From: an uncultured Candidatus Saccharibacteria bacterium | GTDB taxonomy: Bacteria; Patescibacteriota; Minisyncoccia; Phycocordibacterales; UBA12445 | Direction: 5' to 3' | Length of the DNA: 64,000 bases | Assembly: GCA_964649715.1 (NCBI GenBank) | Contig: CAZYTH010000005.1 | Location: forward strand, 1,765 to 65,764 | In this document: piece after piece, positions 10,921 to 48,780 of the stretch | Position numbering within the stretch: position 1 is the first letter of the stretch | Layout: each line of letters starts with the position of its first letter | Position numbers and translations under genes: made by a program | The notes under the pieces: model-generated | What the model was told of the DNA's origin: nothing | Database searches by the model: none | What the model saw: only the letters and a program-made list of their open reading frames with translations

Positions 10921-12250
10921 ATGGATAAAATACTTTCTAAAATAAAAAATAAAATTCCGAAGAGCTTTCTTGAAAAAATTAGACCAGCTTATCATTACTC
11001 TCTAGCTCTACTGGGCAACACAATATACAACTCCCCCTCAAAAGAAATATTTGTGATCGGGATAACGGGAACAAAAGGAAAATCCACCACAGTTGAGATC
11101 TTGAGTGCGATATTAGAGGAAGCAGGTTACAAAACAGCGGTTGCTTCCACCGTCAGGTTCAAGATAGACAAAGACAGCAAGTCCAACCTCCTAAAAATGA
11201 CAATGCCTGGAAGATTTTTTATTCAAAAATTTTTAAGAGAAGCCGTTGTCGCTGGTTGTGAATACGCAATAATAGAAATGACCTCTGAGGGTGCGAAGAA
11301 CTTCAGACATAAATTTGTTGAACTTAATTCTCTGATATTTACAAATATATCACCCGAACACATTGAGTCTCACGGATCATATGAAAAATATCTTGGGGCA
11401 AAACTATCCATCGCCAAACAGCTAGAATCTTCTGGAAAACCAAGTCGCTCTATTATCGCAAACGGCGACGACGAGGAATCTGATAAATTCTTTAAAATAA
11501 ATGTTCCCAACAAAATAGCGTTTTCTCTTGCGGAAGCAAAACCATTTACCCTAGAAAAAGAATATTCTGATATAAACATCTTCGGAGAAAGAGTTATCAC
11601 AAAATTACCAGGAGAATTCAATGTGATGAACATACTTGCGGCATCCACCTTCGCAAGAAGCCAGGGAATATCGCCGACTATAATAAAAAATGCGATAGAA
11701 AAAATAAAAAATATTCCGGGAAGAGTTGAAAAAATTGAAATAAATTCTAAAGATAAAAGATGAAAGTGGCAAAGAAATTGGAATTGGAACATTTCCTGAT
11801 TTTAGCGTAATCGTTGATTATGCACACACGGCTGATTCATTAGAAAAACTTTATAAAGTTTTTAAGCGAGAAAAAAGAATCTGTGTCCTTGGGAGTTGTG
11901 GAGGAGGACGAGACAAATGGAAAAGACCTAAAATGGGATCCGTTGCAGAAAATTATTGTGATGAAATAATCTTAACCGACGAAGATCCTTACGACGAAGA
12001 TCCGGAGGAAATAATTAGAGAAGTTGCGAAAGGAATCAAAAACAAAAAACCAAAAATTATTTTAGATAGAAGAGAGGCAATCAGAGAAGCACTCTCATGT
12101 GCGAAAAAAGGTGATGTTGTTCTTATAACAGGTAAGGGAACCGATCCATGTATAATGAAAAAAAATGGAGAAAAAATTTCATGGAGCGACAAGGAAGTGA
12201 CAGAGGAAGAATTAGTTAAGCTGGCAATTGAGAGAACGGTGAACAAATAA
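10921..12250 (+). CDS. Mur ligase family protein (MurE-like UDP-N-acetylmuramoyl-tripeptide ligase), apparent frameshift near 11745-11765
   Basis: GITGTKGKSTT P-loop. Mur-ligase core ...FTNISPEHIESHGSYEKYLGAKLSIAKQ...IPGRVEKIEI. The conserved VIVDYAHTADSLEKL motif is only in the +1 frame (11765 onward), which continues into ORF 11933-12250 (C-terminal Mur ligase domain). The frame switch is at an A-rich tract aaagataaaagatgaaag. Confidence 0.65.
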
Positions 12251-13996: not shown

Positions 13997-14395
13997 ATGC
14001 CAGAGATATTTTCACAAGTGTTAGGATATAAAAAAATTTTTAGTATCTTTCCCGAATTATATAACTATAAAGAATTCTCCCCTCTCCTTCTTAGGGTCAC
14101 CCTCGCTACCACACTAATTGTTGTCGGCTGGAAATTTTTTTCAAAAAAAACTGGTTGGCGTGGAGTTAACGTTGTTATAGGAATAGTTGAGATAGGAACA
14201 GGGGTCTTGCTCGTACTAGCAGCGTACACTCAACTCGCCGCTTTACTCTCTGTAATAATATCCATTATGAGCATAATCGCTGGCATAAGAAAGGGGGAAG
14301 GATATTTTTTTTGGCAACATCTACTAACGCTGGCAATTTCTATATCTCTGCTTCTTACCGGACCCGGGATTATGTCTCTGGACTTACCCCTTTAA
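13997..14395 (+). CDS. Small multi-pass membrane protein (DoxX-like)
   Basis: 132 aa, four hydrophobic helices. Assignment to DoxX is by topology only. Confidence 0.4.
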   Translation: MPEIFSQVLGYKKIFSIFPELYNYKEFSPLLLRVTLATTLIVVGWKFFSKKTGWRGVNVVIGIVEIGTGVLLVLAAYTQLAALLSVIISIMSIIAGIRKGEGYFFWQHLLTLAISISLLLTGPGIMSLDLPL

Positions 14396-14441: not shown

Positions 14442-15848
14442 TTGACACTCGCCACCAGCAAAGATAGGATAAAAAGAAATAGTTATTTGAAAATACTGAC
14501 AAACATCGAAAAGGAGGTTTTTGTGGATAACTGGTTAGAATTGGATTACAAAAGTCCAAGCGCTGAGGAAATCTTTTGCATAAAATTTTTTGACAGATTT
14601 ATTATTGGTCAACAAAGAGCGAAAGAAAAAATCGCTTCAAATTTAGCCACATGGAAACATGGACTTTCAGACAAAGACAAACCTGCTTCAATTCTCCTTC
14701 TTCCAGGACCTTCTGGCGTCGGAAAAACATATCTTGTCCGTGTCTTTGCAAAACTTCTTATCGGAGATATGAACGCCTTCACCAGAATAGACTGCTCAAA
14801 TCTTCAAGAAAGTCACACCATCTCTCGTCTCCTTGGTTCCCCTCCCGGATATGTTGGATACAGTGAGGAATCCGAGATTTCTCAAGAGAAACTTGACCGC
14901 CACTATGAAGACAGGCATCCACAAAAACCAACAGCGGAAGAAAAAAGAAAACTAGAAGAATTAAACGACAAACTTTTTGAGCTTGCTCAAGAAGTTGACG
15001 ATCTTCAGTTTAAACTCTCCGAAGAAAAAGATGTAATAAAAAAAAATGAGCTTTCCAAGCGGATAAAGGCTAAACAGAGAGAATTCTTAGATATTCACAA
15101 AAAGCAAGAAGAATTTATCAAAAGATCCGAAAAAAACAAAGCAAGATGTCCTTCTATCCTTCTATTCGACGAGATTGAAAAGATTCATCCAGCGATCACA
15201 AGAGCCCTGCTTCCTATCTTTGATACAGGTGAAACAAAACTTGCGAATGGGAAAATAGTTAACTTTAGGAATTGTTTCATCTTTATGACCTCCAATATCG
15301 GAGCAAGAAAACTTGCCGACATGCAAAGGGGCAAAGGAAAGATAGGAATCTTCACAGAAACAACTCAAAAAGAAAAAGAAGAAGATAAAAACATCTACCA
15401 AACGGTAATCGAAGAAATTACTCACTCCGAACACTTCCCGACAGAGCTTATTGGACGAATTGGCAAAGAGAATATTGTGATATTCCATTCTCTAAAAGAA
15501 TCTGGAATCAGAAATATCATTGAGCTTCAGATAAAAGAGATGGAGAGAAAAATTCAAATTGCCTCTCCCGGAACAAAGCTAATTTTTTCTCAACCATTAA
15601 AAGATTTTCTTTTTACAGAAACACAAGATCCCGTGAACAAAGCCCTCGGAGCCAGACCTATTGAAAATGTGATTAAGTCAAAGATACTAAATCCTCTAAT
15701 GAATCTGATTATTAAAGGTGAAGAAGGCGGAATCATTCCCGGAGACATAATAAAAATTGATATAAAAGAATTCACGAAAAACGGAGCAAAAAAGAGTAAG
15801 GTCGTTATTGAAAAAGTAAAAGATCAAAATAGAATTGACATCATTTGA
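14442..15848 (+). CDS. Stand-alone AAA+ ATPase related to the ClpA/ClpB second nucleotide-binding domain (D2), with an inserted coiled coil of about 85 aa
   Basis: IIGQQRAKEKIASNLATWKHGLSDKDKPASILLLPGPSGVGKTYL and LLGSPPGYVGYSEE match Clp D2. Walker B ILLFDEIEK lies about 100 residues later, versus about 17 in ClpB. Sensor region FMTSNIGA and C-terminal IGRIGKENIVIFHSL are conserved. TTG start per ORF track. Confidence 0.7.
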   Translation: MTLATSKDRIKRNSYLKILTNIEKEVFVDNWLELDYKSPSAEEIFCIKFFDRFIIGQQRAKEKIASNLATWKHGLSDKDKPASILLLPGPSGVGKTYLVRVFAKLLIGDMNAFTRIDCSNLQESHTISRLLGSPPGYVGYSEESEISQEKLDRHYEDRHPQKPTAEEKRKLEELNDKLFELAQEVDDLQFKLSEEKDVIKKNELSKRIKAKQREFLDIHKKQEEFIKRSEKNKARCPSILLFDEIEKIHPAITRALLPIFDTGETKLANGKIVNFRNCFIFMTSNIGARKLADMQRGKGKIGIFTETTQKEKEEDKNIYQTVIEEITHSEHFPTELIGRIGKENIVIFHSLKESGIRNIIELQIKEMERKIQIASPGTKLIFSQPLKDFLFTETQDPVNKALGARPIENVIKSKILNPLMNLIIKGEEGGIIPGDIIKIDIKEFTKNGAKKSKVVIEKVKDQNRIDII

Positions 15849-15851
15849 TGG

Positions 15852-15882
15852 CAAAAAGGAGACCAAAAGGTCTCCTTTTTTT
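15852..15882 (+). terminator. Rho-independent terminator (ggagacc-aaaa-ggtctcc plus T7)
   Basis: Perfect 7 bp stem and T-run directly after the AAA+ gene stop. Confidence 0.7.
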
Positions 15883-15966
15883 AATGCGTCCACCATCAAA
15901 GTCATTAGGTAAACTCAATCCAATTAAATAATCAAATCTTAAACCAAGAAGTAAATTTGGATATTT

Positions 15967-17490
15967 TTATTCTGTATATCTTATTCTTTTTTTGAGCTTC
16001 TCAAATAGCACATTTATTTTGACCTGAAAATATCTTTTTTCTTTTTCATAATCTGGATTGGTCTTCCTGTTTTCGTCTAGAATAAGATTATCCCCTAAAA
16101 TTTTTTCTATTTCAGACAATCTCCACAATAGTCTATAAATATTATCAATCTTTTTATTTAATTCCCTTTTTTTATTAATAGAAATTTCAGATAAATCGCT
16201 GTCCTTCAATTCCGCTTTCTGTGCTTTTAATTCTTCTAATGAATTACTTAGTCGTTCCCTTGGGTTTAGTGAATTAACCTCTTGCGCAATCTGTTCTATT
16301 GATAAATAATTCTGTTCTATCGATCCATTTTCCAAGGACTCTTGAATCCTTCTTTCTGTTTCCATGGTAATTTTATCCTTTTTGGTGGCGACGTCCTCTT
16401 GTTTGGGTGTTTCTTTCTTGTTTAGTTTTTTGCAATATTCTTCAATTTTTTCCGATGAGATGAGTTCTCTTAATACCCCTCTTATTATTCTTTTTTTCAT
16501 GTCAAAATTATCTGCTTCCGGACCTCCTGGAGGCATTCCCGCATTGACCCAATCTTTATATCTAGCCATCAAGTGACGCAGAGGTATTATGACCAAAACA
16601 AGATCGTCCACTTTTTTCTCTAAAGTAAGCGACATTTTCTGTTTGGACATTTCTGTTTGTTTGCCCTTTTTCTCCCCTACATCTTTGTTGGTATTTATCG
16701 TAAATTGTATACCTGTGCTTTTGGAATCAGATTCGACGTCAACTCCTCTTAGCCTATTTTTTGTTTCTACAATAAAATCTATTTTATATTCAACATCCTC
16801 AAAAAAATCTACATCTTTTACATCAAATTCCGCTTCATGATCGATTTCCAACTTCTTTAAAATTGTTTTAACAAGTTTTTCGGCTACAAATCCGCCTCTC
16901 TCTAGACTTTCTTTTTTATTTTCAGGTAGCCTTGTTCCGTATGCTTGCTTTTTTCCTTCATCAGTAAATCCGCTGCTGTGTTCGTTTATCGCTATTTGTT
17001 CGTCCAATAATTCTCCGATTAGAGACGAAGTTCTTTCTACGATATATCTCTTTCTTACATCGCGTGGAACAGTAAGAGGATCGAGATTATAATCATTGCC
17101 CCAATCATAATCTGTAAAAATTGTACCCAGAGTTACTCTTATGTCACCCACAAAATAAAAGTCTCCTTCTTTTTTAACATTTCGAACGTTTCTGCCCTCA
17201 ACCTCTTCTATTTCTACCAACTCATTGTTGTCTATTTTTCTAAGATTTTCCCTGAGACCTTTCATTATCTCTAATTTTTTTTCTTGAATCTCATATATTT
17301 CTGTCTGTTTTTCCGGGGTATTCAAAAAATACTCAGATCTGCTTTCGATGAGTTTAATTTTGTCTCTCAGTATCTCCGGGTCTTTCTCTCTAAATTCACC
17401 TTTTATATTTTTGCCATAATCTCTTAGAGCTATTTTTTCAAAAAATTCTCTCATATTTTTTATTAAATTTTTATTGTTATACTTTAGCAA
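15967..17490 (-). CDS. Hypothetical coiled-coil protein (507 aa)
   Basis: Long ORF with coherent, charged, Lys/Glu-rich composition and heptad-like segments. No recognisable catalytic motif. Confidence 0.45.
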   Translation of the reverse strand: MLKYNNKNLIKNMREFFEKIALRDYGKNIKGEFREKDPEILRDKIKLIESRSEYFLNTPEKQTEIYEIQEKKLEIMKGLRENLRKIDNNELVEIEEVEGRNVRNVKKEGDFYFVGDIRVTLGTIFTDYDWGNDYNLDPLTVPRDVRKRYIVERTSSLIGELLDEQIAINEHSSGFTDEGKKQAYGTRLPENKKESLERGGFVAEKLVKTILKKLEIDHEAEFDVKDVDFFEDVEYKIDFIVETKNRLRGVDVESDSKSTGIQFTINTNKDVGEKKGKQTEMSKQKMSLTLEKKVDDLVLVIIPLRHLMARYKDWVNAGMPPGGPEADNFDMKKRIIRGVLRELISSEKIEEYCKKLNKKETPKQEDVATKKDKITMETERRIQESLENGSIEQNYLSIEQIAQEVNSLNPRERLSNSLEELKAQKAELKDSDLSEISINKKRELNKKIDNIYRLLWRLSEIEKILGDNLILDENRKTNPDYEKEKRYFQVKINVLFEKLKKRIRYTE

Positions 17491-17650
17491 AAATAACTAA
17501 ATTTATAAATAAATTTAAAAAACACCCACAATTAAAATTTCAATATTATCTCCTGCGAGAAAGAATTTTTAAGCCCAGCAGAATTATTCCAATATATGGA
17601 CAGTCCAATCGTCGGATCCACCTTGGGTGGATACTCAGTCTGGTTTCGAA

Positions 17651-17690
17651 CTGCCTCTACCTATTGGTAGACAGGTTCCGGCAGGCAGGC
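17651..17690. repeat. Shorter copy of the composite palindromic element (ctgcctctacctattggtagacagg ... ggcaggcaggc)
   Basis: Aligns with 2535-2595. Preceded by a tRNA T-arm-like ggtttcgaact segment. Confidence 0.5.
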
Positions 17691-17727
17691 TAACGAAAGC
17701 TATGGGTAATGGCTTTCTCTGGGCAGA

Positions 17728-17752
17728 CAAAAATCCGCTCATCGCGGATTGT
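17728..17752 (-). terminator. Hairpin aatccgc-tcatc-gcggatt directly downstream of the tRNA-Lys 3' end
   Basis: 7 bp stem followed by a short T-run on the minus strand. Probable tRNA transcript terminator or processing hairpin. Confidence 0.35.
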
Positions 17753-17755
17753 TTG

Positions 17756-17828
17756 TGCGCCCAGCAGGATTCGAACCTGCGACCATTTGCTTAAAAGGCA
17801 ACTGCTCTACCAACTGAGCTATGGGCGC
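17756..17828 (-). tRNA. tRNA-Lys (anticodon UUU)
   Basis: Reverse complement GCGCCCATAGCTCAGTTGGTAGAGCAGTTGCCTTTTAAGCAAATGGTCGCAGGTTCGAATCCTGCTGGGCGCA is near-identical in architecture to E. coli tRNA-Lys. Anticodon loop CTTTTAA. Confidence 0.85.
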
Positions 17829-17891
17829 ATTTAATAACTAATGTGTAAAAAACAATAACAAAATTATCGCTACCTGTCCAATGACAACACG

Positions 17892-17916
17892 ATGAGCGAG
17901 GTTGAACCTCACTCAT
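17892..17916. repeat. REP-like 25 bp imperfect palindrome atgagcgaggttgaacctcactcat overlapping the RAYT stop codon
   Basis: Seen directly. Related copies at 18395-18419 (reverse complement) and 18627-18651 (direct). Confidence 0.7.
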
Positions 17917-18622
17917 CATTTTGTTCCATAATTAAATCTATGTCTCCATCATTCTTATTGTCCCTAATCCAATCTTCCATTTCTTTTTTATACTTCGCTT
18001 CCCCGCCAAGATAACCACTCATCCATTCTCGCGATGTAACAGATGGAAAATTTTTTATTCCTATATAATCTAAATAGCTACTCCATCTATAGTGATTCAA
18101 TTGTTCTATTTTTTCGGATGGCAATCCCTTGGATTTCTTTATGGGGTTATTGTGTATATAAAAAGGCAACCAACCAAAATGAGCTTCTTTTTTTATGTGG
18201 ACCGCCTTAAATCTTCCCTGAAACAAACCCCCCACTCTCTCATATTTTTGATTAAAATACATAGTATATCCAGTCCCCAGTTTCTGCATAAATTTTACGA
18301 TTCCATTCTCTTGTCTTTGTTTCAAAACCAAATGAAAATGATTGGGCATCAATGTAAAAATAATAACATCAACCAACCTTTTTCTATTCTTCACAAATGA
18401 GTGAGGTTCAACCTCGCTCATTGATCTATTATGTTCAATGTCACGACCTAAATTCTGAACTGGGGAATTATTATTAAATTCATAAAGACAGTGAATAAAT
18501 CTAAGATGGTCCTGCTTATCTAAAAAGATGTTTCTTTTTTCTACACCCCTATTATAAATGTGATAGAATTCATCTTCTATAAATTCCGGTTTTTTCTTTG
18601 CCATAAACAAGAATACTATCAT
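17909..18622 (-). mobile_element. REP-associated tyrosine transposase (RAYT; IS200-like Y1 HUH transposase)
   Basis: EFYHIYNRGVEKRNIFLD N-terminal motif. HUH motif MPNHFHLVL. Catalytic Tyr region GYTMYFNQKYERVGGLFQGRFK. Bracketed by REP palindromes in the RAYT arrangement. Confidence 0.75.
18395..18419. repeat. REP-like palindrome copy inside the RAYT coding sequence (encodes MSEVEPHS in frame)
   Basis: Exact reverse complement of the 17892-17916 copy. Confidence 0.7.
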
Positions 18623-18626
18623 CCTT

Positions 18627-18651
18627 ATGAGCGAGGTTCAACCTCACTCAT
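18627..18651. repeat. REP-like palindrome copy 5 bp upstream of the RAYT start codon
   Basis: Differs from the 17892-17916 copy only at the central base. Confidence 0.7.
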
Positions 18652-18730
18652 AAAATAGGAAAAGAAAAAAGGCGTTCGGTTTAAAACCGAAACGCCCTGT
18701 GTAGGCTTTCGCCCGATGTGTGTGTGAAGA

Positions 18731-19198
18731 CTACTTCTTCTTCTTGCCGCCCTTACCCTTGTTCTTCTTGTTCTTGCCCCCATCGGAGGAGCCGCCCTTC
18801 CCTTTCTTCTGCTTCGGGGGCTTCACCTTGGGATGCCAAGTGCCGTTGGCCTTCCCCGCTTCGATGCCGGCCCAACGAGCCGGCTTGGCCTTGGACTTTT
18901 TCTTCGACCCAACGCGGGAACGATTCAGGATTGACGGTCGATACTCCTCCTGAATCAAACCCTTGATGTAGGCCGAGTGGATTCGACGAACCTGAAAAGC
19001 CTCCCTTTCCTCGGCGTCGAAAATCGCGCCGTTCTGGACTTCGATGATGTTGCCGAGCGTGAAGTCCTTGTTGACGGTCTGAACCTTCCAGTCTCCTTCA
19101 TTGTCGGGAAGATTGGAGAGATTCTCGAGAATAATCCCGAGACCCTCAAACACCGAGAGGAAAAACTTGATTACCTCACCGACACGGAAGTTCACCAT
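18731..19198 (-). CDS. Hypothetical protein (155 aa) with GC3-rich codon usage and a Lys/Gly-rich C-terminal tail (KKKSKAKPA...KGKGGKKKK)
   Basis: Coherent ORF in a GC-rich segment. Consensus sigma70 promoter and AAAAGGAGGG ribosome-binding site upstream. Basic tail suggests nucleic-acid binding. No family recognised. Confidence 0.55.
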   Translation of the reverse strand: MVNFRVGEVIKFFLSVFEGLGIILENLSNLPDNEGDWKVQTVNKDFTLGNIIEVQNGAIFDAEEREAFQVRRIHSAYIKGLIQEEYRPSILNRSRVGSKKKSKAKPARWAGIEAGKANGTWHPKVKPPKQKKGKGGSSDGGKNKKNKGKGGKKKK

Positions 19199-19245
19199 AA
19201 AAATAGCCCTCCTTTTAAAATTTTGATGTTCTTAATTCTCTTTTA

Positions 19246-19274
19246 ATTATATACCTTTATTATGAATCTGTCAA
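19246..19274 (-). promoter_or_regulatory. Consensus sigma70 promoter TTGACA-17-TATAAT for the 155 aa gene
   Basis: Minus strand reads ggtggtgTTGACAgattcataataaaggtaTATAATtaaaag, about 45 nt upstream of ribosome-binding site AAAAGGAGGG and the ATG at 19198. Confidence 0.6.
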
Positions 19275-19435
19275 CACCACCAAATAAAATTGTCTAAAAT
19301 ACAGATAATCAACGACTATCATCCCTTTTGTCATTCCCGACTTGATCGGGAATCCAGAAATTGTCTTTGAAACTGGATCCCCGTTTTCACGGGGATGACA
19401 ACTAAAACCGAGTCGCACTAAGAAAAAACATGCAA

Positions 19436-19492
19436 CCCTGATTGGATAAAAATATATTCATCTAAAATGAATATATTTTTATCCAATCAGGG
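19436..19492 (-). terminator. 26 bp perfect inverted repeat with 5 nt loop, followed on the minus strand by ttgcatgtttttt
   Basis: ccctgattggataaaaatatattcat-ctaaa-atgaatatatttttatccaatcaggg. Unusually long stem. Could also be a protein-binding palindrome. Confidence 0.5.
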
Positions 19493-19502
19493 TAAAGAAA
19501 AA

Positions 19503-19529
19503 GGCGCTGAAGCTTGAGAGCTTAGCGCC
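19503..19529 (-). terminator. Rho-independent terminator (ggcgctaagctc-tcaa-gcttcagcgcc plus TTTTTCTTT) after the 292 aa gene
   Basis: Hairpin plus T-run on the minus strand, 50 nt after the stop at 19581. A smaller hairpin ggagatg-gac-atctcc (19540-19560) precedes it. Confidence 0.55.
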
Positions 19530-19580
19530 TGAAATGGACATTTTGTTGATGGAGATGTCCATCTCCGATTCTGCACTAGG

Positions 19581-20459
19581 TTACTTCTTGTTGGTCGGGC
19601 GGAGTTTGGATAGAAGGTTGGCAACCACCGGAACCTTCTCGATCTGTGCCCTGAATCCCTCATCCATCCACTTGAAGTGAGCGAACAGGAATCCGCCGTT
19701 ACCGTTCTGATTCTTGCGCCGTTCCAAGATCGGAACATCGCGCTCGAGACCGAGCTCCACCTTGCCTTCAACGAGCTGAAGAGTCCGGACCTTGGCCCAG
19801 ATCTCCCCATCGAAGCCTGACTTGGTGGAGATTACCGCACAGGGGCCCGCCGACCCGTGGATGTGGAGTTCTCCCCGAATGACACGAGGCCAGTCGAAGA
19901 TTTCCTTTCCGTCGGCGAGTTTCTTCTTCTTGGTGAAGCCACGGGAACCCCATTGCCAGCGAGCCTCGGAGATGGGCAGGGTGATCAGGATCTCGGAGAT
20001 CCGCTTGGCCAACTTCAGCTTAAGCTGGTCAGCGACGGCCTTGGGCAGGATCCGGAATTCGCTACGGGAAAGACTGACCGGAACGCCCTCGGAGGTCTCG
20101 GCCTCCATCTGACCATCGGCCTTGACCGAGATCAAGACCAGGTGACCGCACTTGACCGCAGCACCGACATAGCCGGACCGCGGATCGATGGGGGGCAGCT
20201 CCTTCAGAGTGCCGTCTTCCATCTTCTTCTGGCGGCGGATGTTGGCCATGCCGTAGAGACCGTTGAGCTCGAACTGCTCGATCGGGCGAAGGGAGGTCTT
20301 CTGGACCGCCTCCATGACCTGGTCGGTGCCGGCGATCTGAAGATCGACGAGATCTTCGGTTTCCTTGAGGATGAACATGGGCTTGGCGGATGGATCGTCC
20401 TTGAAGGCGACCCATTCCAACACGAACCGTGGTCTGCTGTTCTGATTCTTGTTCTCCAT
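19581..20459 (-). CDS. Hypothetical protein (292 aa) with GC3-rich codon usage
   Basis: Long ORF with protein-like composition. Opposite-strand ORFs are Asp/Gly/Leu-rich antisense artefacts. Ribosome-binding site AAAGGAGGG lies 8 nt before the ATG. No family recognised. Confidence 0.55.
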   Translation of the reverse strand: MENKNQNSRPRFVLEWVAFKDDPSAKPMFILKETEDLVDLQIAGTDQVMEAVQKTSLRPIEQFELNGLYGMANIRRQKKMEDGTLKELPPIDPRSGYVGAAVKCGHLVLISVKADGQMEAETSEGVPVSLSRSEFRILPKAVADQLKLKLAKRISEILITLPISEARWQWGSRGFTKKKKLADGKEIFDWPRVIRGELHIHGSAGPCAVISTKSGFDGEIWAKVRTLQLVEGKVELGLERDVPILERRKNQNGNGGFLFAHFKWMDEGFRAQIEKVPVVANLLSKLRPTNKK

Positions 20460-20763
20460 AACAATTGCCCTCCTTTGGGCTTCGAAATTCAGAATGTACC
20501 CTTTCGCTAAACTACCTCTTCCTCCAAAGAAGATTTGATTAAGCGAAGGACACGCGCACGGCCGGGTGAAATTCCACGGCCAATTTTTAGAACAGTTTCC
20601 CTTCCTCCTTTTTCATTTAACATAGAATTGACATCGCTTTCCTTGTGACGGAATTTCTCCCGCCCAAGATGGCAGTGCCGAGTCCGGATGTTGTTGTTGA
20701 CTTAATCCACCTCCTTCTTTTTGAAATAACCTTTATTGCAATGAACAAACTTGATTTTGGTTT

Positions 20764-38702: not shown

Positions 38703-39803
38703 TTACTTTATCATTGGCATCAAAAGGTACATAAAAGAATCATTGCCTACTGGTTTTATTATTACAGGCCTCTGGTGTCCATTGAAAGTAATAACAACAC
38801 TATCTTCCTTAATACTACTGAGACATTCCAATATAAATTTGGCGTTGAAACTCATATCTATCTCTTCACCCTCTAAAGTAGCATCAACCCTTGTAACGCT
38901 TTCTCCTTTGTCTTGATTCTTTGAACTAACTTCAAACAGAGAATCAGATGGTATTATTTTAAAATTAACTTGGTTGAATTTATCGGAAAAAATGTTTGAT
39001 ATTTTTATAGAATCTATCAGTTCTTCTTTCAAAATAACTACTTCTGTTTTCTTTCCTTTTGGGATTATTTGTCTATAATCAGGAAAAATACCCCCGACAA
39101 CCCTTGATGTAAAATAAAGGCCTGAGGAGACAACCGACATTTGATTTTTGTTAAAAATAAGTTCTATATCCTCATTGTGGTTTTCTAAAATTCTAACCAA
39201 CTCATTTGCATTTTTTATAGGTATTATTGAAGATGAAAAACCTGTAGTATTACCTATATCTATTCTTTTTTCAGCTAACCTTGAAGAATCTGTTGATACA
39301 AAATAAAGGTAACCACCGTCAAAATAAATATAAACACTTGATATTTCAGGTTTTATGTCTGAAACCAGTGCTGAATAAGAAACCGATTTTATTCCCTCTA
39401 TTAGCTTGAAAGGACTTAATTTTAAAGATTCTTCTTTTTCTATCCTAGGAATAAGAGGAAATTCATCTGAAGGAAAACTCTTTATTAAGGTTGAATTTCT
39501 TTTTGTTGATACAGATAAATTATTGTTTAGAGATTCCATCTTAACAGTATCGTCACCATCCAACATCTGCAAAAATCCGCTCAATAAGTAAGCTGGAACA
39601 GCAACACTTCCTGGTTTTTCCACTCTTGAAGAAATATTAACCTCAAGACCAATATCAAGATTGGTTGCTTTAAGTGTAAGTGTTTTTTCTTTTGCTTCCA
39701 GAAGTATTGATTCTAGTATAGGTAAAGAGAGATTTTTACCAGAAATCTTTCCTACTTGAAAAACAGCTTCTTTTAATTTTTCTTTTGAACAATCAATTTT
39801 CAT
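38703..39803 (-). CDS. dnaN: DNA polymerase III beta subunit (sliding clamp)
   Basis: MKIDCSKEKLKEAVFQVGKISGKNLSLPILESILLEA matches the DnaN N-terminus. 366 aa. Immediately downstream of dnaA. Confidence 0.85.
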   Translation of the reverse strand: MKIDCSKEKLKEAVFQVGKISGKNLSLPILESILLEAKEKTLTLKATNLDIGLEVNISSRVEKPGSVAVPAYLLSGFLQMLDGDDTVKMESLNNNLSVSTKRNSTLIKSFPSDEFPLIPRIEKEESLKLSPFKLIEGIKSVSYSALVSDIKPEISSVYIYFDGGYLYFVSTDSSRLAEKRIDIGNTTGFSSSIIPIKNANELVRILENHNEDIELIFNKNQMSVVSSGLYFTSRVVGGIFPDYRQIIPKGKKTEVVILKEELIDSIKISNIFSDKFNQVNFKIIPSDSLFEVSSKNQDKGESVTRVDATLEGEEIDMSFNAKFILECLSSIKEDSVVITFNGHQRPVIIKPVGNDSFMYLLMPMIK

Positions 39804-40178
39804 TTTTTATAGATAGTAATGTGTTTATAATTCATCAAGCACTTTCTACTAATTTATATTAAATTATTTATTATATATAAAACTACTATTATTATTAGAA
39901 CTGTTGATATGTTGATAAATCGATTAAGTTATTACTGCTAAACGTTTTTTTTGAAGAACAACTGTGGAATAACAGGGCAAAAGGTTACATATAAAAAGTG
40001 GAGAAGAAAAAGATAAAATATTTGTTAAAAGTTTTAAACAACTTTTCCACTCTTTTGTCGTCAGGTAATACATACAAAATTCACATCTTTTTCCACAAAG
40101 TTATCAACAGAAAGAATACAGTTTGATAAAGAACAACGAACCCAAACGTTTACATATCCACTATTTGTTTTTGGTATT
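39804..40178. promoter_or_regulatory. Candidate oriC: AT-rich dnaA-dnaN intergenic region with degenerate DnaA boxes and an AT-rich unwinding tract
   Basis: Box-like 9-mers ttatcaaca (40101), tgttgataa (39910), atatccact (40154), tgtggaata (39963). Very AT-rich tract 39860-39900. Position between dnaA and dnaN. Confidence 0.5.
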
Positions 40179-41615
40179 TTAAATAGAGGCGGATAAAGAC
40201 ATCTTATTATCTGAACCAAAAAGAAGAGTCTTTATTTGTTCTATTTCTCCCAAAAGCGTATCGTTGTTTTTTATCTCTTCTTTTATTTTTTCACATGCGT
40301 GGATAACAGTTGTATGATCTCTACCCCCCATTTTTTGTCCTATATGAGGGTAAGAATAATTCATATCCTCCCTTAAAATATACATTCCAATTTGTCTTGG
40401 TTTAACAACCTCCCTTCTTCTTGTTTTTTCGTATAAGAATTTTTCTTCGATATTGTAAAACTCAGAGATTGCTTTCATAATTTCGCTAATAGAAACGGTT
40501 TTTTGTCTTTTGACGTTGTTTTTTATGAGACCCCTTACGTCGCTTATTGTTAATTCTTTATTTTTTAATTGAGACTGACAAATAACAGTATTTAAAACAC
40601 CCTCAAGCTCTCTTATACTTTCTTGTATATTGACGGCAATAAAATCTATCAGATCGTTTGATAGCGATTTGTTCATTTGTTTTAGTTTTGTTTTTAGGAT
40701 AGCAACCCTTGATTCATATTCGGGTTTAGAGATATCAACAGTCATTCCACCCTCAAATCTTGATTTCAGTCTTTCCTCTAGATTTTGTATTAATTTTGGC
40801 GGTTTATCGGAAGAGTATATTATTTGTTTGTTGCTGTTATAGAAATCATTAAAAAGATGAAAAACTTCTTCTTGTGTTTTATCTTTTCCACCAAAAAATT
40901 GAACATCGTCTATTATTAATGCGTCGTATTTTCTGTATTTTTCCTTGAATTGGTTTATGGTGTTGTTTTGCATTGCGCTAACAAGTTCTACGGTGTACCT
41001 TTCTGATGTCATATAAAAAACGGTTTTCCCATCTTTTTTTAAGGAATTACCGACAGCTTGTATGAGATGAGTCTTACCTAGTCCTGTTCCACCATAAATA
41101 TAGAGAGGGTTGTAGTCCATTCCCGGTCTTTTTATTACTGTTTGGGCGGCAGCAAAAGCTAGTTCGTTGAAAGGTCCTATTATAAAGTTATCAAAGATGT
41201 ATTTTGGGTTCAGATTGTCTTCTCTGTTTACATAAGGTTCATTTAGCTTTAATTGAGGGACATCTTTTTTTTGAGATTCCTCGGGGGTTTCTCTTTGGTT
41301 GGTTTTTATTGTTTCGTCTTTGCTTATTATGTACTCCACCCCTCTTGTATGTGGAGAAACATCCCTCAATGCTTTTACTATAAATTTATGATATTTGTTT
41401 GATAACCAATCTTTTACAAAAGCATTTGGGACGGCGAGGAAAATGGTTCCATCTTCCTGTTTTATTATATAGGTGTTTTTAAACCAAGTACTAAAATTGG
41501 CTTTAGATACTATTGTCTCTATCTCAACAAGAGCATCATTCCAGATTTTCTTGTTCTCGTCCTCACAGACAATATTATTGGTTTCATTCATAAGGTAAAT
41601 TATATTCTTGCCCAC
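40179..41615 (-). CDS. dnaA: Chromosomal replication initiator protein DnaA
   Basis: Walker A NPLYIYGGTGLGKTHLIQAVGN. AAA+ and C-terminal DNA-binding domain (...DHTTVIHACEKI...). Confidence 0.9.
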   Translation of the reverse strand: MGKNIIYLMNETNNIVCEDENKKIWNDALVEIETIVSKANFSTWFKNTYIIKQEDGTIFLAVPNAFVKDWLSNKYHKFIVKALRDVSPHTRGVEYIISKDETIKTNQRETPEESQKKDVPQLKLNEPYVNREDNLNPKYIFDNFIIGPFNELAFAAAQTVIKRPGMDYNPLYIYGGTGLGKTHLIQAVGNSLKKDGKTVFYMTSERYTVELVSAMQNNTINQFKEKYRKYDALIIDDVQFFGGKDKTQEEVFHLFNDFYNSNKQIIYSSDKPPKLIQNLEERLKSRFEGGMTVDISKPEYESRVAILKTKLKQMNKSLSNDLIDFIAVNIQESIRELEGVLNTVICQSQLKNKELTISDVRGLIKNNVKRQKTVSISEIMKAISEFYNIEEKFLYEKTRRREVVKPRQIGMYILREDMNYSYPHIGQKMGGRDHTTVIHACEKIKEEIKNNDTLLGEIEQIKTLLFGSDNKMSLSASI

Positions 41616-46980: not shown

Positions 46981-48780
46981 TTACTCACTTGCCTTCAACT
47001 CCGCTTTTGCCTTCTTTATCGCCAGAAGTTGTGATGGATCGGATGTAATGATTTGATCCTCTGTATAAGAAGAAATGACTTTAATCGCCACGTGTTTAAG
47101 ACCAGCAAAGAATATCCCCTCCCCGACATTTGATTCAAGCAAGAGATATTTTTCTTCATCTGTTAGGTTGAAAGTTTTTTTGACTATATCTATTGAAGCT
47201 GGTGATTGTTTGAAAAGTATTTGCATTGAAGAGTTGGTAATAATAGGGACTCCGTATGGAGATTCAAGAAAATCTTTCACGTCCTGGGTTATTGTGGTAA
47301 GACCAAGGAAATATTTTCTTCCTCTTTTTGCAAGACTGAAAAGGAAAGATGCTGTGTCGGGGGATTTCATCATCCACCACGCCTCATCTATAATAAGCAT
47401 TCTTTTTCTAAGTTCTCTTCTTACTGATCCCCAGATATTATTCATGACAATATGCATTGCTACCGGTTTTAGTTCATCTTCCATATCCCTAACTGAAAAA
47501 ACGACAAATTTTTTGTTTATATCAACGTTTGTTGGTCTGTTTAAAAATCCTGCCCATGTTCCTTGTGTGAATTTTAGAAGTCTTTGTGCAAGAGAAGCTC
47601 CTCCTTCCATTCCAGCCAATACCAGCTCTAAGTCGGAAAGAAGCGGAGGTGTGGTGCCTGAAAAATCACTGTCGGCTGTTATGTCTTTGAGCGCGTATGT
47701 TTCCCTTATCGCATTATCCATTATCGCATCTTCTTCGGGCGTCATACCAGAAAGCATTATTCGAAAGAGACCGACAAGGTTTATGATATGGGAACGTAGT
47801 ACATCGGAAGATGATTCGTCTTCTCTCACAAATGGCAGGTCAAAAGGATTTATGTGGTGTTCTGATGTTAAAGAAATATTGAAATATCTTCCACCCACCG
47901 CTTCTGCCAGGAATTCATACTCCCTCTCAGGGTCAATAACAATAACATCAACATCAAACATAAGCGATCTAAGTATTTCAAGTTTTGTGAAATAAGATTT
48001 TCCTGATCCTGACTTTGCAAAAATTACGGAATTGTAGTTTTCCAGAGAGAATCTATCAAAAAGTATTAAACCTGAATTGTGTCTGTTTATTCCATAAAGG
48101 ATTCCTTTGTTTGATGTGAGGTCAAAAGAAATAAATGGAAAAACGCTAGATAATGGAGAGGAGTTTAGTTTCGTGTTTACTTGAAGCCTGTCTGACGCTA
48201 TCGGAATTACACTATTGAATCCTTCTTCTTGCTGAAAAAGAGCGGGTTTTATATAAACAAGACGAGATTCCATCATTGTTTTCACTTCTGCTTCTACTTT
48301 ATTCAATTCCTCTTCGTTACTTGCGTATAGCGTTATATAAAGCCCGACATCAAATATTTTTTCTCTTGCTTGTTGGAGTAGGTCTCGGAGAGTTTCAATA
48401 TCTTGAAAAGCTGTATCTAAGATAGGGTCTCTTACCATACCCTTTGCCTCGTTTGCGTGTATTTGGCTCTGTACTTCAGCCAGTTTTTTCTGGAGTTGTC
48501 TCAAAACAAGAGAGGTATCTATCGGATGAATGATTACAGAAACATCAAATATTTTGTCTAAATTTATTATCGGAGAGAACCAATTTTCGGAAAGAAAACG
48601 AGGATAAGAAATAACATAAAATGTTCTAGCCACTTTCTCCCCTATTTTTATGTTGTTTGATCCAACCTCAAGAGCAGATGGAGAGATGACATCCCTTAAC
48701 TCTAAAACTCCGCTTGAATAAATATCTTGTGGTAAGATGGCTTCTATTTTATTATCTTTATTTTTTCCAAAAAAATCCAT
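46981..48780 (-). CDS. Type IV secretion ATPase VirB4/TrbE/TraE family, ATPase part (599 aa)
   Basis: Walker A IFAKSGSGKSYFTK. Walker B MLIIDEAWWMM. Conserved VirB4 middle region (...ILPQDIYSSGVLELRD...FYVISYPRF...). Confidence 0.8.
   Translation of the reverse strand: MDFFGKNKDNKIEAILPQDIYSSGVLELRDVISPSALEVGSNNIKIGEKVARTFYVISYPRFLSENWFSPIINLDKIFDVSVIIHPIDTSLVLRQLQKKLAEVQSQIHANEAKGMVRDPILDTAFQDIETLRDLLQQAREKIFDVGLYITLYASNEEELNKVEAEVKTMMESRLVYIKPALFQQEEGFNSVIPIASDRLQVNTKLNSSPLSSVFPFISFDLTSNKGILYGINRHNSGLILFDRFSLENYNSVIFAKSGSGKSYFTKLEILRSLMFDVDVIVIDPEREYEFLAEAVGGRYFNISLTSEHHINPFDLPFVREDESSSDVLRSHIINLVGLFRIMLSGMTPEEDAIMDNAIRETYALKDITADSDFSGTTPPLLSDLELVLAGMEGGASLAQRLLKFTQGTWAGFLNRPTNVDINKKFVVFSVRDMEDELKPVAMHIVMNNIWGSVRRELRKRMLIIDEAWWMMKSPDTASFLFSLAKRGRKYFLGLTTITQDVKDFLESPYGVPIITNSSMQILFKQSPASIDIVKKTFNLTDEEKYLLLESNVGEGIFFAGLKHVAIKVISSYTEDQIITSDPSQLLAIKKAKAELKASE

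What the first reader, a model, noticed from the sequence alone, without database searches (positions are those of the whole stretch)
14442..15848. Single-domain ClpB-D2-like AAA+ protein with a coiled-coil insertion between the PGYVGY region and Walker B
The protein begins directly with the ClpA/ClpB D2 signature (IIGQ..A...GLSDKDKP.ASILLLGPSGVGKT) and lacks D1 and the N-domain. Between the conserved LLGSPPGYVGYSEE motif and Walker B (ILLFDEIEK) it carries about 85 extra residues of Glu/Lys-rich heptad sequence. In ClpB the coiled-coil middle domain is inserted in D1, not D2. A stand-alone D2 with its own coiled-coil insert is not an architecture I can place.
Basis: partly seen in the sequence, partly recalled or inferred. 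Interest (0 to 1): 0.5.

Follow-up and report, generated by a model that had tools for sequence, protein, structure and literature searches.

The report
Single-ring Clp unfoldase with coiled-coil insert
This gene from an ultrasmall (CPR/Patescibacteria-type) bacterium encodes a one-ring protein-unfolding motor of the Clp family with a helical "antenna" inserted where only HslU has one, plus the loop that normally docks onto the ClpP protease. It belongs to a large unnamed family that may be the ClpP partner in bacteria lacking ClpX and Lon.

Summary
The ORF at 14442-15848 encodes a single ClpA/B/C-D2-type AAA+ module. About 82 extra residues lie between the GYVG pore loop and Walker B. The true start is probably GTG 14523, giving 441 aa.

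AlphaFold models the insert as a confident antiparallel helical hairpin. It is not a frame artefact. More than 100 clusters (at 50% identity) of 400-520 aa homologs, mostly from Parcubacteria/CPR MAGs, carry an insert at the same point. The insert varies in length and has almost no sequence conservation.

- The insertion point is the one used by the HslU I-domain.
- The family keeps an invariant-Gly hydrophobic-Gly-hydrophobic loop (IGI here, IGF in most). It aligns with ClpX IGF and ClpA IGL, the ClpP-docking tripeptide that ClpB lacks.

Some relatives also carry an N-terminal Lon substrate-binding domain.

I could not find the family named or described in any library or paper I searched. My best reading is a single-ring, ClpP-coupled unfoldase whose coiled coil sits on the substrate-entry face. 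Published Paceibacteria single-cell genomes show ClpP but no ClpX or Lon. I could not test ClpP co-occurrence in the same genomes.

The convergent 507-aa ORF is not a conserved partner. I class this as a new variant of a known kind, of moderate interest.

The parts
14442..14470 (+). Sigma-70-like promoter candidate, TTGACA-17-TAGGAT. Its TTG is the codon that the ORF listing took as the start.
   Evidence: 10 of 12 matches. This is a consensus match only. The region as a whole is not enriched for such sites over shuffles.
14511..14517 (+). Shine-Dalgarno AAGGAGG, 5 nt upstream of GTG 14523.
   Evidence: Sequence read.
14523..15848 (+). Most likely CDS (441 aa) of the single-module Clp-D2-type AAA+ ATPase. 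The longest ORF starts at 14442.
   Evidence: Homologs P0001 and P0003 (441 aa, 76-78% identical) start at the aligned position.
14706..14729 (+). Walker A, GPSGVGKT (ORF residues 89-96).
   Evidence: Nearly invariant G89, P90, G92, V93, G94, K95 and T96 in A1.
14847..14858 (+). Pore-1 loop, GYVG (residues 136-139).
   Evidence: G136 and G139 are invariant and Y137 nearly invariant.
14883..15137 (+). Helical-hairpin (coiled-coil) insertion, residues 148-232. It begins with the family-specific SQxxLD and then forms two long antiparallel helices.
   Evidence: AF2 helices 148-158, 165-194 and 198-232 with pLDDT of about 90. It is unmatched by Pfam and PDB D2 models. The heptad pattern is shown. 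Its length varies from 54 to 116 aa, and its identity is far below that of the core.
15159..15182 (+). Walker B, LLFDEIEK (residues 240-247).
   Evidence: D243, E244 and E246 are invariant.
15288..15296 (+). Sensor-1, TSN (residues 283-285).
   Evidence: T283 and N285 are invariant. The motif aligns with ClpA TTN and ClpB TSN.
15336..15359 (+). Flexible loop carrying the hydrophobic-Gly-hydrophobic tripeptide IGI (residues 301-303). This is the candidate ClpP-docking loop.
   Evidence: G302 is invariant in 30 sequences. The tripeptide aligns with ClpA IGL617 and ClpX IGF268, and ClpB has nothing there. pLDDT is below 50 for residues 299-306. The motif is present in 39 of 41 family members sampled.
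15456..15458 (+). Arginine finger, R339, in the family motif GRIGKEN.
   Evidence: Invariant. It aligns with the Arg of ClpB/ClpA 'NRID'.
15492..15722 (+). D2-small (lid) domain with sensor-2 GAR (R405).
   Evidence: Pfam ClpB_D2-small, 1.1e-10, residues 351-427. R405 is invariant.
15852..15882 (.). A-run/hairpin/T-run shared by the two convergent genes. It is probably a bidirectional intrinsic terminator.
   Evidence: RNA fold of -19.1 kcal/mol, z = -4.4 against shuffles. The simple terminator scan missed it.

Best explanation
The gene encodes a class-2 (single-ring) Clp/Hsp100 unfoldase. It is built from a ClpC/ClpA-D2-like AAA+ module.

Shown:
- One AAA+ module has every catalytic and translocation motif intact: Walker A/B, sensor-1, Arg finger, sensor-2 and the GYVG pore loop.
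- A helical hairpin of about 80 aa is inserted between the pore-1 loop and Walker B. This is the same topological site as the HslU I-domain.
- A flexible loop with an invariant Gly in a hydrophobic-Gly-hydrophobic tripeptide sits at the position of the ClpX IGF, ClpA IGL and ClpC LGF loops.

Inferred:
- The protein forms a hexamer.
- The tripeptide loops on the C-terminal face dock into the hydrophobic clefts of ClpP.
- The six coiled-coil hairpins project from the opposite, substrate-entry face, as HslU I-domains do. There they stand in for the missing N-domain and D1, acting as a site for substrate or adaptor capture or as a gate.
- ATP-driven pore-loop strokes then thread substrates into ClpP.

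In Paceibacteria-type CPR bacteria, which appear to have ClpP but no ClpX or Lon, this family would be a main cytosolic ClpP activator. Relatives with an added N-terminal Lon substrate-binding domain fit a protein-quality-control role.
For: Fold and motifs:
- Pfam, NCBIfam and PDB matches are given.
- The top Foldseek hits are ClpC1 chains from ClpC1:ClpP1P2 complexes.
- Invariant residues are K95 (nearly invariant), D243/E244, N285, R339 and R405.

Insertion site:
- In a MAFFT alignment with E. coli ClpA-D2, ClpB-D2, ClpX and HslU, the insert falls where the HslU I-domain lies.
- GYVG-to-Walker-B spacings are 104 (query), 163 (HslU), 22 (ClpA and ClpB) and 29 (ClpX).
- AF2 gives a hairpin in the query and in the 31%-identical P0052.

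Docking loop:
- G302 is invariant although it lies in a loop with pLDDT below 50.
- The tripeptide aligns to ClpA IGL and ClpX IGF.
- It is present in 39 of 41 sampled members and in most of the 50%-identity representatives.
- All 41 two-ring proteins among the best hits carry an LGF-type motif, so they are ClpC-like rather than ClpB-like.
- PMC10149685 states that LGF loops dock ClpC on ClpP and that their presence or absence discriminates ClpC from ClpB.

Context and distribution:
- The gene sits among housekeeping genes (S20, ruvA, a Mur ligase, fpg, a SpoU methylase, holA, polA). The order is syntenic with a Parcubacteria MAG.
- LonN-fused relatives exist.
- PMC12361377 estimates ClpP at about 1.2 copies per Patescibacteria genome.
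- In the 49 visible SAG columns of its source table, K01358 (ClpP) is present in 20 of 49, K03544 (ClpX) in 0 of 49 and K01338 (Lon) in 0 of 49. I checked six of those SAG names against the taxonomy tables, and all six are Paceibacteria.
Against: - No clpP lies within +-10 kb of any of the ~130 fetched loci, or in the 64-kb window.
- I could not show that ClpP is present in the very genomes that carry this family.
- The query's tripeptide is IGI, not the canonical IGF/IGL/LGF. A few members deviate further (PGF, or EGF in P0077).
- Overall sequence and fold similarity to the ClpP-independent ClpB-D2 and Skd3 is as high as to ClpC and ClpA.
- The orientation of the insert relative to the ring faces is inferred from HslU topology. 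It was not measured on a hexamer model.
- The ClpX and Lon absence rests on KO annotation of SAGs that average about 34% complete. Only 49 of about 200 columns were visible, and the ClpA/B/C rows were cut off.
Confidence: 0.5

Rival explanations
1. The protein is a protease-independent unfoldase or disaggregase, a bacterial analogue of Skd3/CLPB or of an isolated ClpB NBD2 ring. On this reading the inserted coiled coil acts like the ClpB M-domain, giving autoinhibition or coupling to DnaK, and the hydrophobic-Gly-hydrophobic loop has another role.
Against: ClpB and Skd3 lack the tripeptide loop, whereas this family keeps an invariant Gly in a disordered loop at exactly that site. The insert is in a different module position from the M-domain and has no conserved residues that would suggest a fixed DnaK-binding surface. 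The nearest two-ring relatives are all LGF-bearing ClpC types.
Confidence: 0.27
2. The protein is a component of a mobile-element, defence or secretion system, for example Dodola DolB-like or ClpV-like, rather than a housekeeping proteostasis factor.
For: There is a weak partial PADLOC hit to DolB (66.6 bits, residues 8-105 only) and to PDC-M37B. The downstream region of the window is variable and contains a transposase-like ORF and a 52% GC segment.
Against: The PADLOC hits cover only the generic P-loop region. No neighbour hits PADLOC or PHROGs. The gene keeps its place in a conserved housekeeping block (fpg, SpoU methylase, 132-aa membrane protein, this AAA gene) in relatives down to 46% identity. 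In those relatives the downstream variable genes differ. Other members lie next to the L10/L12 ribosomal protein genes.
Confidence: 0.06
3. The insert is an artefact: a misassembly, a frameshifted join, or a decaying pseudogene of a two-ring Clp gene.
For: The same window contains one clearly frameshifted gene, the Mur ligase. The listed ORF start is probably wrong.
Against: The reading frame is continuous. A 97.7%-identical independent contig covers the 3' part of the gene. Homologs of 76-78% identity and 437-441 aa are colinear end to end, including the insert. More than 100 50%-identity clusters share the architecture. Both AF2 models are confident.
Confidence: 0.01

Closest known systems
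HslU (ClpY) and its I-domain
   Same: It is a single AAA+ ring of the HslU/ClpX, ClpAB-D2, Lon and RuvB group. A large, poorly conserved, partly helical domain is inserted between the GYVG pore-1 loop and Walker B (E. coli HslU: GYVG at 90, Walker B at 253). In HslU that domain projects from the face distal to the protease (established knowledge).
ClpX
   Same: It has one AAA+ ring, a GYVG pore loop, and an IGF-type loop after sensor-1. The P0001 loop 'GKGRIGFGTKT' resembles ClpX 'TGSGIGFGATV'.
   Different: There is no N-terminal zinc-binding domain. The NCBIfam ClpX score is 32.6 bits against a cutoff of 359. The module is D2-type, with a ClpB_D2-small lid. ClpX has no insert (spacing 29).
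D2 ring of ClpC / ClpA / ClpE
   Same: These give the best sequence and Foldseek matches. The motifs are the same, including the LGF/IGL-type ClpP-docking loop.
   Different: ClpC, ClpA and ClpE are two-ring proteins with an N-domain, and ClpC has its M-domain in D1. Here D1 and the N-domain are absent and the coiled coil is inside the D2-type module. NCBIfam ClpA scores 158 bits against a cutoff of 993.
ClpB NBD2 / human CLPB (Skd3)
   Different: ClpB and Skd3 lack the ClpP-docking tripeptide and the insert. Skd3 has ankyrin repeats. The ClpB coiled coil is in NBD1.
LonB / LonC insertions
   Same: These related AAA+ modules also carry an extra domain embedded in the module. For LonB it is a membrane anchor (PMC9569914). 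For LonC it is a helical insertion domain (my own knowledge).
   Different: Those are Lon-type modules covalently fused to a Lon protease domain. This family has no protease domain. Some members carry the Lon N-domain instead.
ClpI (Actinomycetota; PMC10149685)
   Same: It is a precedent for a new Clp unfoldase class recognised bioinformatically. Presence or absence of the LGF loop was used there to infer ClpP coupling.
   Different: ClpI is a two-ring, ClpC-like protein of Actinomycetota. This family is single-ring, carries the insert, and is centred on CPR.

Membership tests
Clp/Hsp100 D2-type AAA+ module (Pfam AAA_2 + ClpB_D2-small) | Walker A, Walker B, sensor-1 Asn, Arg finger, sensor-2 GAR, and the aromatic pore loop GYVG | tested here: met
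   GPSGVGKT, LLFDEIEK, TSN285, R339, GAR405 and GYVG136 are invariant or nearly invariant in 30 homologs.
Clp/Hsp100 D2-type AAA+ module (Pfam AAA_2 + ClpB_D2-small) | Profile matches above the curated thresholds | tested here: met
   AAA_2 scores 129 bits (cutoff 27). ClpB_D2-small scores 41.8 bits (cutoff 21.9).
ClpB (TIGR03346) | N-domain plus two AAA+ modules with the M-domain in D1, and an equivalog score of at least 1232 bits | tested here: not met
   The score is 186 bits, and only profile positions ~565-850 are matched. There is a single Walker A.
ClpB (TIGR03346) | Absence of a ClpP-docking tripeptide loop | tested here: not met
   The query has IGI301-303 with invariant G302. E. coli ClpB has no such motif.
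ClpA / ClpC | Two AAA+ rings plus the Clp_N domain | tested here: not met
   There is a single module. ClpA TIGR02639 scores 158 bits against a cutoff of 993. There is no Clp_N hit.
ClpA / ClpC | [LIV]-G-[FL] loop after sensor-1 in D2 | tested here: inconclusive
   The aligned motif is IGI here and IGF, VGF, LGF or MGF in most relatives. Its function was not tested.
ClpX | N-terminal C4 zinc-binding domain, and the ClpX equivalog score | tested here: not met
   The score is 32.6 bits against a cutoff of 359. The N-terminus is ~25 residues with no Cys cluster.
HslU | Domain inserted between the pore-1 loop and Walker B | tested here: met
   Spacing is 104 against 163 in HslU and 22-29 in ClpA, ClpB and ClpX.
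HslU | HslU-type sequence, and a conserved C-terminal tail that activates HslV | tested here: not met
   phmmer to HslU gives E 8.5e-4 against 1e-41 to ClpB/ClpC D2. The family C-termini are not conserved.
ClpP-dependent unfoldases (functional class) | ClpP encoded in the same genome, and physical docking with activation | not testable with these tools
   There is no clpP in the window or in any +-10 kb flank. The only evidence is phylum-level literature.
Dodola DolB (PADLOC) | Full-length DolB match with an adjacent DolA | tested here: not met
   The hit is partial (residues 8-105, 66.6 bits). None of the five neighbouring ORFs tested hits PADLOC.

The most novel reading that the evidence does not exclude
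This would be the founding example of an undescribed class of Clp unfoldase. It is a single ClpC-D2-derived ring that independently acquired an HslU-like distal insertion domain. It would serve as the main, perhaps only, cytosolic ClpP activator in Paceibacteria/CPR lineages that have lost ClpX and Lon. The Lon-N-fused variants would then rebuild Lon-style substrate recognition on a Clp protease.
Probability: 0.33. Interest if true: 0.75.

Novelty: new variant of a known kind. Interest (0 to 1): 0.55.

Why it matters
CPR/Patescibacteria make up a large share of bacterial diversity, and their minimal proteostasis machinery is essentially uncharacterised. If this family is the ClpP partner where ClpX and Lon are missing, it would explain how regulated proteolysis and the clearance of damaged proteins work in these ultrasmall cells.

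It would also show that the site between the pore-1 loop and Walker B is a recurrent evolutionary "socket" for substrate-handling domains, as in HslU, LonB and LonC, and here in a Clp D2 module. It would offer a compact, single-ring, D2-type unfoldase for mechanistic study.

If the protein turns out to be ClpP-independent, it would be a bacterial counterpart of Skd3 with its own built-in coiled-coil regulator.

Tried and rejected
- **Misjoined frame or pseudogene.** Rejected by end-to-end colinearity with homologs and by the size of the family.
- **The 507-aa convergent ORF as a partner.** It has no Pfam, NCBIfam, PADLOC or PHROG hit. It has no homolog in any of ~130 related loci. It appears only in the 97.7%-identical contig L013. 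Relatives at 46-78% identity have other genes there.
- **clpP, clpX or hslU linkage.** tblastn of the E. coli proteins against 1.7 Mb of flanks and against the window found no ClpP, ClpX or HslU orthologue. The only hits, from ClpX, HslU, ClpA and ClpB, were weak generic AAA+ matches on the family gene itself.
- **Identifying the source genome.** An exact-protein look-up of the 441-aa protein and of PolA found nothing on record.
- **AFDB50 fold search.** The library was unavailable.
- **Literature.** Searches for a description of this family in CPR found none. They returned only the ClpI precedent and the Antarctic SAG KO table.
- **Direct ClpP co-occurrence in the same genomes.** I could not test this.
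- **Defence-system reading (DolB).** Considered and rejected on context.
Full report
**Observation.** The + strand ORF 14442..15848 (468 codons) is real.

- Pfam AAA_2 (E 2.3e-37) matches it in two pieces, and ClpB_D2-small matches residues 351-427.
- NCBIfam gives only partial, far sub-threshold matches to the D2 end of ClpB (186 bits against a cutoff of 1232), ClpV and ClpA.
- phmmer against PDB aligns residues 52-150 and 230-441 to the D2 of ClpC and ClpB. Residues ~150-230 are unmatched.
- The distance from GYVG to the Walker B strand is 104 residues. It is 22 in E. coli ClpA-D2 and ClpB-D2, 29 in ClpX and 163 in HslU.
- The insert is 49% charged. Its first long helix has a clear heptad pattern, with 87.5% hydrophobic residues at a/d positions against 18% elsewhere.

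**Gene model.**

- The TTG at 14442 is the -35 hexamer of a promoter-like site, TTGACA-17-TAGGAT.
- An AAGGAGG at 14511-14517 lies 5 nt before GTG 14523.
- The closest homologs (P0001 and P0003, 441 aa, 76-78% identical) begin at the aligned position.
- The product is therefore most likely 441 aa.
- The 27 extra N-terminal residues of the long ORF are modelled with pLDDT of about 50.
- A strong A-run/hairpin/T-run at 15852-15882 (-19.1 kcal/mol, z -4.4) separates the gene from the convergent 507-aa ORF.

**Structure.**

- AlphaFold2 with the family alignment gives pLDDT 84.9 and pTM 0.74. The model is a canonical alpha/beta AAA+ large domain and a D2-small lid.
- The insert forms helices 148-158, 165-194 and 198-232. 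This is an antiparallel hairpin with pLDDT of about 90.
- Foldseek puts ClpC1 chains from ClpC1:ClpP1P2 complexes first.
- No solved structure covers the insert (TM-score normalised to query length about 0.6).
- A second model, of the 31%-identical P0052 with a longer insert, also gives a long helical hairpin at pLDDT 85-89. The hairpin is therefore a family trait.

**Family.**

- The word-indexed search found a set of 400-490 aa single-module proteins covering about 90% of the query, insert included. Where a source names an organism, they come from Parcubacteria-group, Harrisonbacteria and related CPR MAGs.
- In the alignment of 30 members (A1), the invariant or nearly invariant positions are the P-loop, GYVG, a family-specific SQxxLD just after the pore loop, Walker B, sensor-1, the Arg finger, sensor-2, and one glycine (G302) discussed below.
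- A profile search of 1.84 billion 50%-identity representatives returned more than 100 single-stretch, full-length matches of 400-520 aa among the best 150. By motif spacing these carry inserts giving GYVG-to-Walker-B distances of about 67-192.
- Scans of GTDB genomes and JGI metagenomes gave the same split. Every protein scoring above 140 bits to the query for which both motifs could be located has a single Walker A and a spacing of 79-141. ClpC-type two-ring proteins have 22. A separate insert-less single-module group from Acidobacteria, Deltaproteobacteria and Klebsiella has 29.
- The insert evolves far faster than the core. Identity is 51-56% against 82-85% among the closest relatives, and 7-23% against 33-56% in the rest. 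Its length ranges from 54 to 116 aa.
- The insert is thus always kept but has no conserved surface. This is the behaviour of a structural coiled-coil arm.

*Insertion point.* Aligned with E. coli ClpA-D2, ClpB-D2, ClpX and HslU, the insert occupies exactly the place of the HslU I-domain, after the helix that follows GYVG and before the Walker B strand. Related Lon modules also carry embedded domains (LonB membrane anchor, PMC9569914). The architecture therefore has a precedent in this group of AAA+ modules. I found no precedent within a Clp D2-type module in the solved structures or papers I searched.

*Docking loop.* About 16 residues after sensor-1 there is a loop with pLDDT below 50 (residues 299-306) that contains the invariant G302 flanked by hydrophobic residues.

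- The tripeptide is IGI in the query, IGF in most members, and also VGF, LGF, MGF or IGY. It is present in 39 of 41 sampled members.
- It aligns with ClpA IGL617 and ClpX IGF268. ClpB has no counterpart.
- In the PDB alignment it matches the 'NLGF' of the Streptomyces ClpC1 chain.
- All 41 two-ring proteins among the best database hits carry an LGF-type motif.
- PMC10149685 states that these loops dock ClpC on ClpP and that their presence or absence discriminates ClpC from ClpB.
- An invariant glycine inside a disordered loop argues for a docking motif under selection.

**Context.**

- The gene lies in a housekeeping block: S20, ruvA, a Mur ligase, fpg, a SpoU methylase, a 132-aa membrane protein, this gene, then holA, polA and a type IV pilus ATPase.
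- The block is colinear with Parcubacteria GW2011_GWF2_38_76, whose AAA protein is 46% identical, and with contigs of the 76-78% relatives.
- The 132-aa membrane protein stays upstream in relatives down to 41% identity. It is absent in more distant members, which sit next to the L10/L12 genes or other genes.
- The convergent 507-aa ORF has no family hit in any library and no homolog in any other locus. It recurs only in a 97.7%-identical 4-kb contig. It is not a partner.
- No clpP, clpX or hslV gene is found in the window or in 1.7 Mb of flanks.

**Variants.** Longer representatives (700-950 aa) have the same module, with its insert, at the C-terminus. Most of those tested also have a Lon substrate-binding N-domain (PF02190) at the N-terminus and no Lon protease domain. 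Most keep the tripeptide. This points to protein quality control.

**Is there a ClpP to dock on?** I could not test the carrier genomes directly.

- PMC12361377 reports ClpP (K01358) at an incompleteness-corrected 120.8% among Patescibacteria single-cell genomes.
- In the 49 visible columns of its KO table, ClpP is present in 20, ClpX (K03544) in 0 and Lon (K01338) in 0. I checked six of those SAG names against the taxonomy tables, and all six are Paceibacteria.
- The ClpA, ClpB and ClpC rows were cut off.
- JGI's automatic names for family members are 'ClpA' or 'ClpC'.
- This makes the family a plausible ClpP partner in such genomes, but it is an inference.

**Mechanism proposed.**

- *Shown:* an intact translocase module; a distal-type insertion site; a conserved ClpP-type docking tripeptide on a flexible loop.
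- *Inferred:* hexamer formation; tripeptide loops binding ClpP clefts on one face; six coiled-coil hairpins on the opposite entry face, acting as a substrate or adaptor platform or as a gate that replaces the N-domain and D1; ATP-driven threading into ClpP.
- I put this at about 0.5.
- The main rival, at about 0.27, is a ClpP-independent Skd3/ClpB-NBD2-like unfoldase whose hairpin acts as a built-in M-domain-like regulator. Overall similarity cannot separate the two readings.
- The defence or mobile-element reading and the artefact reading are unlikely.

**Novelty.**

- No curated model names the family.
- Six literature searches found no description of it.
- The nearest precedent is the bioinformatic definition of two-ring ClpI in Actinomycetota.
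- I class it as a new variant of a known kind: a class-2 Clp unfoldase that combines a ClpC-type D2, a ClpX/ClpA-type docking loop and an HslU-type insertion.

Noticed in passing
window 10921-12250: The Mur ligase gene is split by a frameshift. The intact 443-aa homolog from L001 matches 10921-11745 in frame 1 and 11759-12199 in frame 2. This is either a pseudogene or a sequencing or assembly error.
   Followed up: partly
window 17755-20520: tRNA-Lys(ttt) at 17755-17828 is followed by a Y1/IS200-like transposase-like ORF at 17909-18622 (Pfam Y1_Tnp, 3.4e-7). Next comes a segment of 51.9% GC against a background of about 35% (18700-20520). That segment has two minus-strand ORFs, of 155 aa with a Lys/Gly-rich tail and of 292 aa, with no hit in any library. 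It looks like foreign DNA in a variable gap between the AAA gene and holA. The syntenic Parcubacteria locus L001 has different small ORFs there.
   Followed up: partly
It has no homolog in ~130 related loci. It recurs only in the near-identical contig L013. It appears to be an orphan, lineage-specific gene.
   Followed up: partly
L013 (JAQUYY010000195.1): This 4-kb contig is 97.7% identical to window 15231-19251 but is deposited in a 'Candidatus Gastranaerophilales' MAG. Given the CPR-like gene content and synteny of the window, the contig is probably mis-binned.
   Followed up: no
L007 10001-12259 (P0043); also P0155, P0184, P0188, P0200, P0210, P0237: These family members are fused to an N-terminal Lon substrate-binding domain (PF02190) and have no Lon protease domain. 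This 'Lon-N + Clp-D2-with-insert' hybrid architecture was new to me.
   Followed up: partly
L018, L019, L026, L032, L034, L035, L037 (Klebsiella MAG) and others: This is a separate group of insert-less single-module D2-like ATPases of 350-450 aa, with a GYVG-to-Walker-B spacing of 29. They come from Acidobacteriota, Deltaproteobacteria and Enterobacteria, and some have xGF loops. They may be related to the PADLOC DolB model that weakly hits the query.
   Followed up: no
window 13997-14395 (+): A 132-aa multi-pass membrane protein with no Pfam hit lies directly upstream and co-oriented. It is kept in that position in relatives whose AAA protein is only 41% identical (L017, L068), but not in more distant members. 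This may be plain synteny or a weak functional link.
   Followed up: partly
window 38703-41615 and 46981-48780: dnaN and dnaA lie next to each other, so the window probably spans the chromosomal origin region. A TraG/VirD4-like P-loop protein and large ORFs of 842 and 889 aa without Pfam hits lie further on.
   Followed up: no
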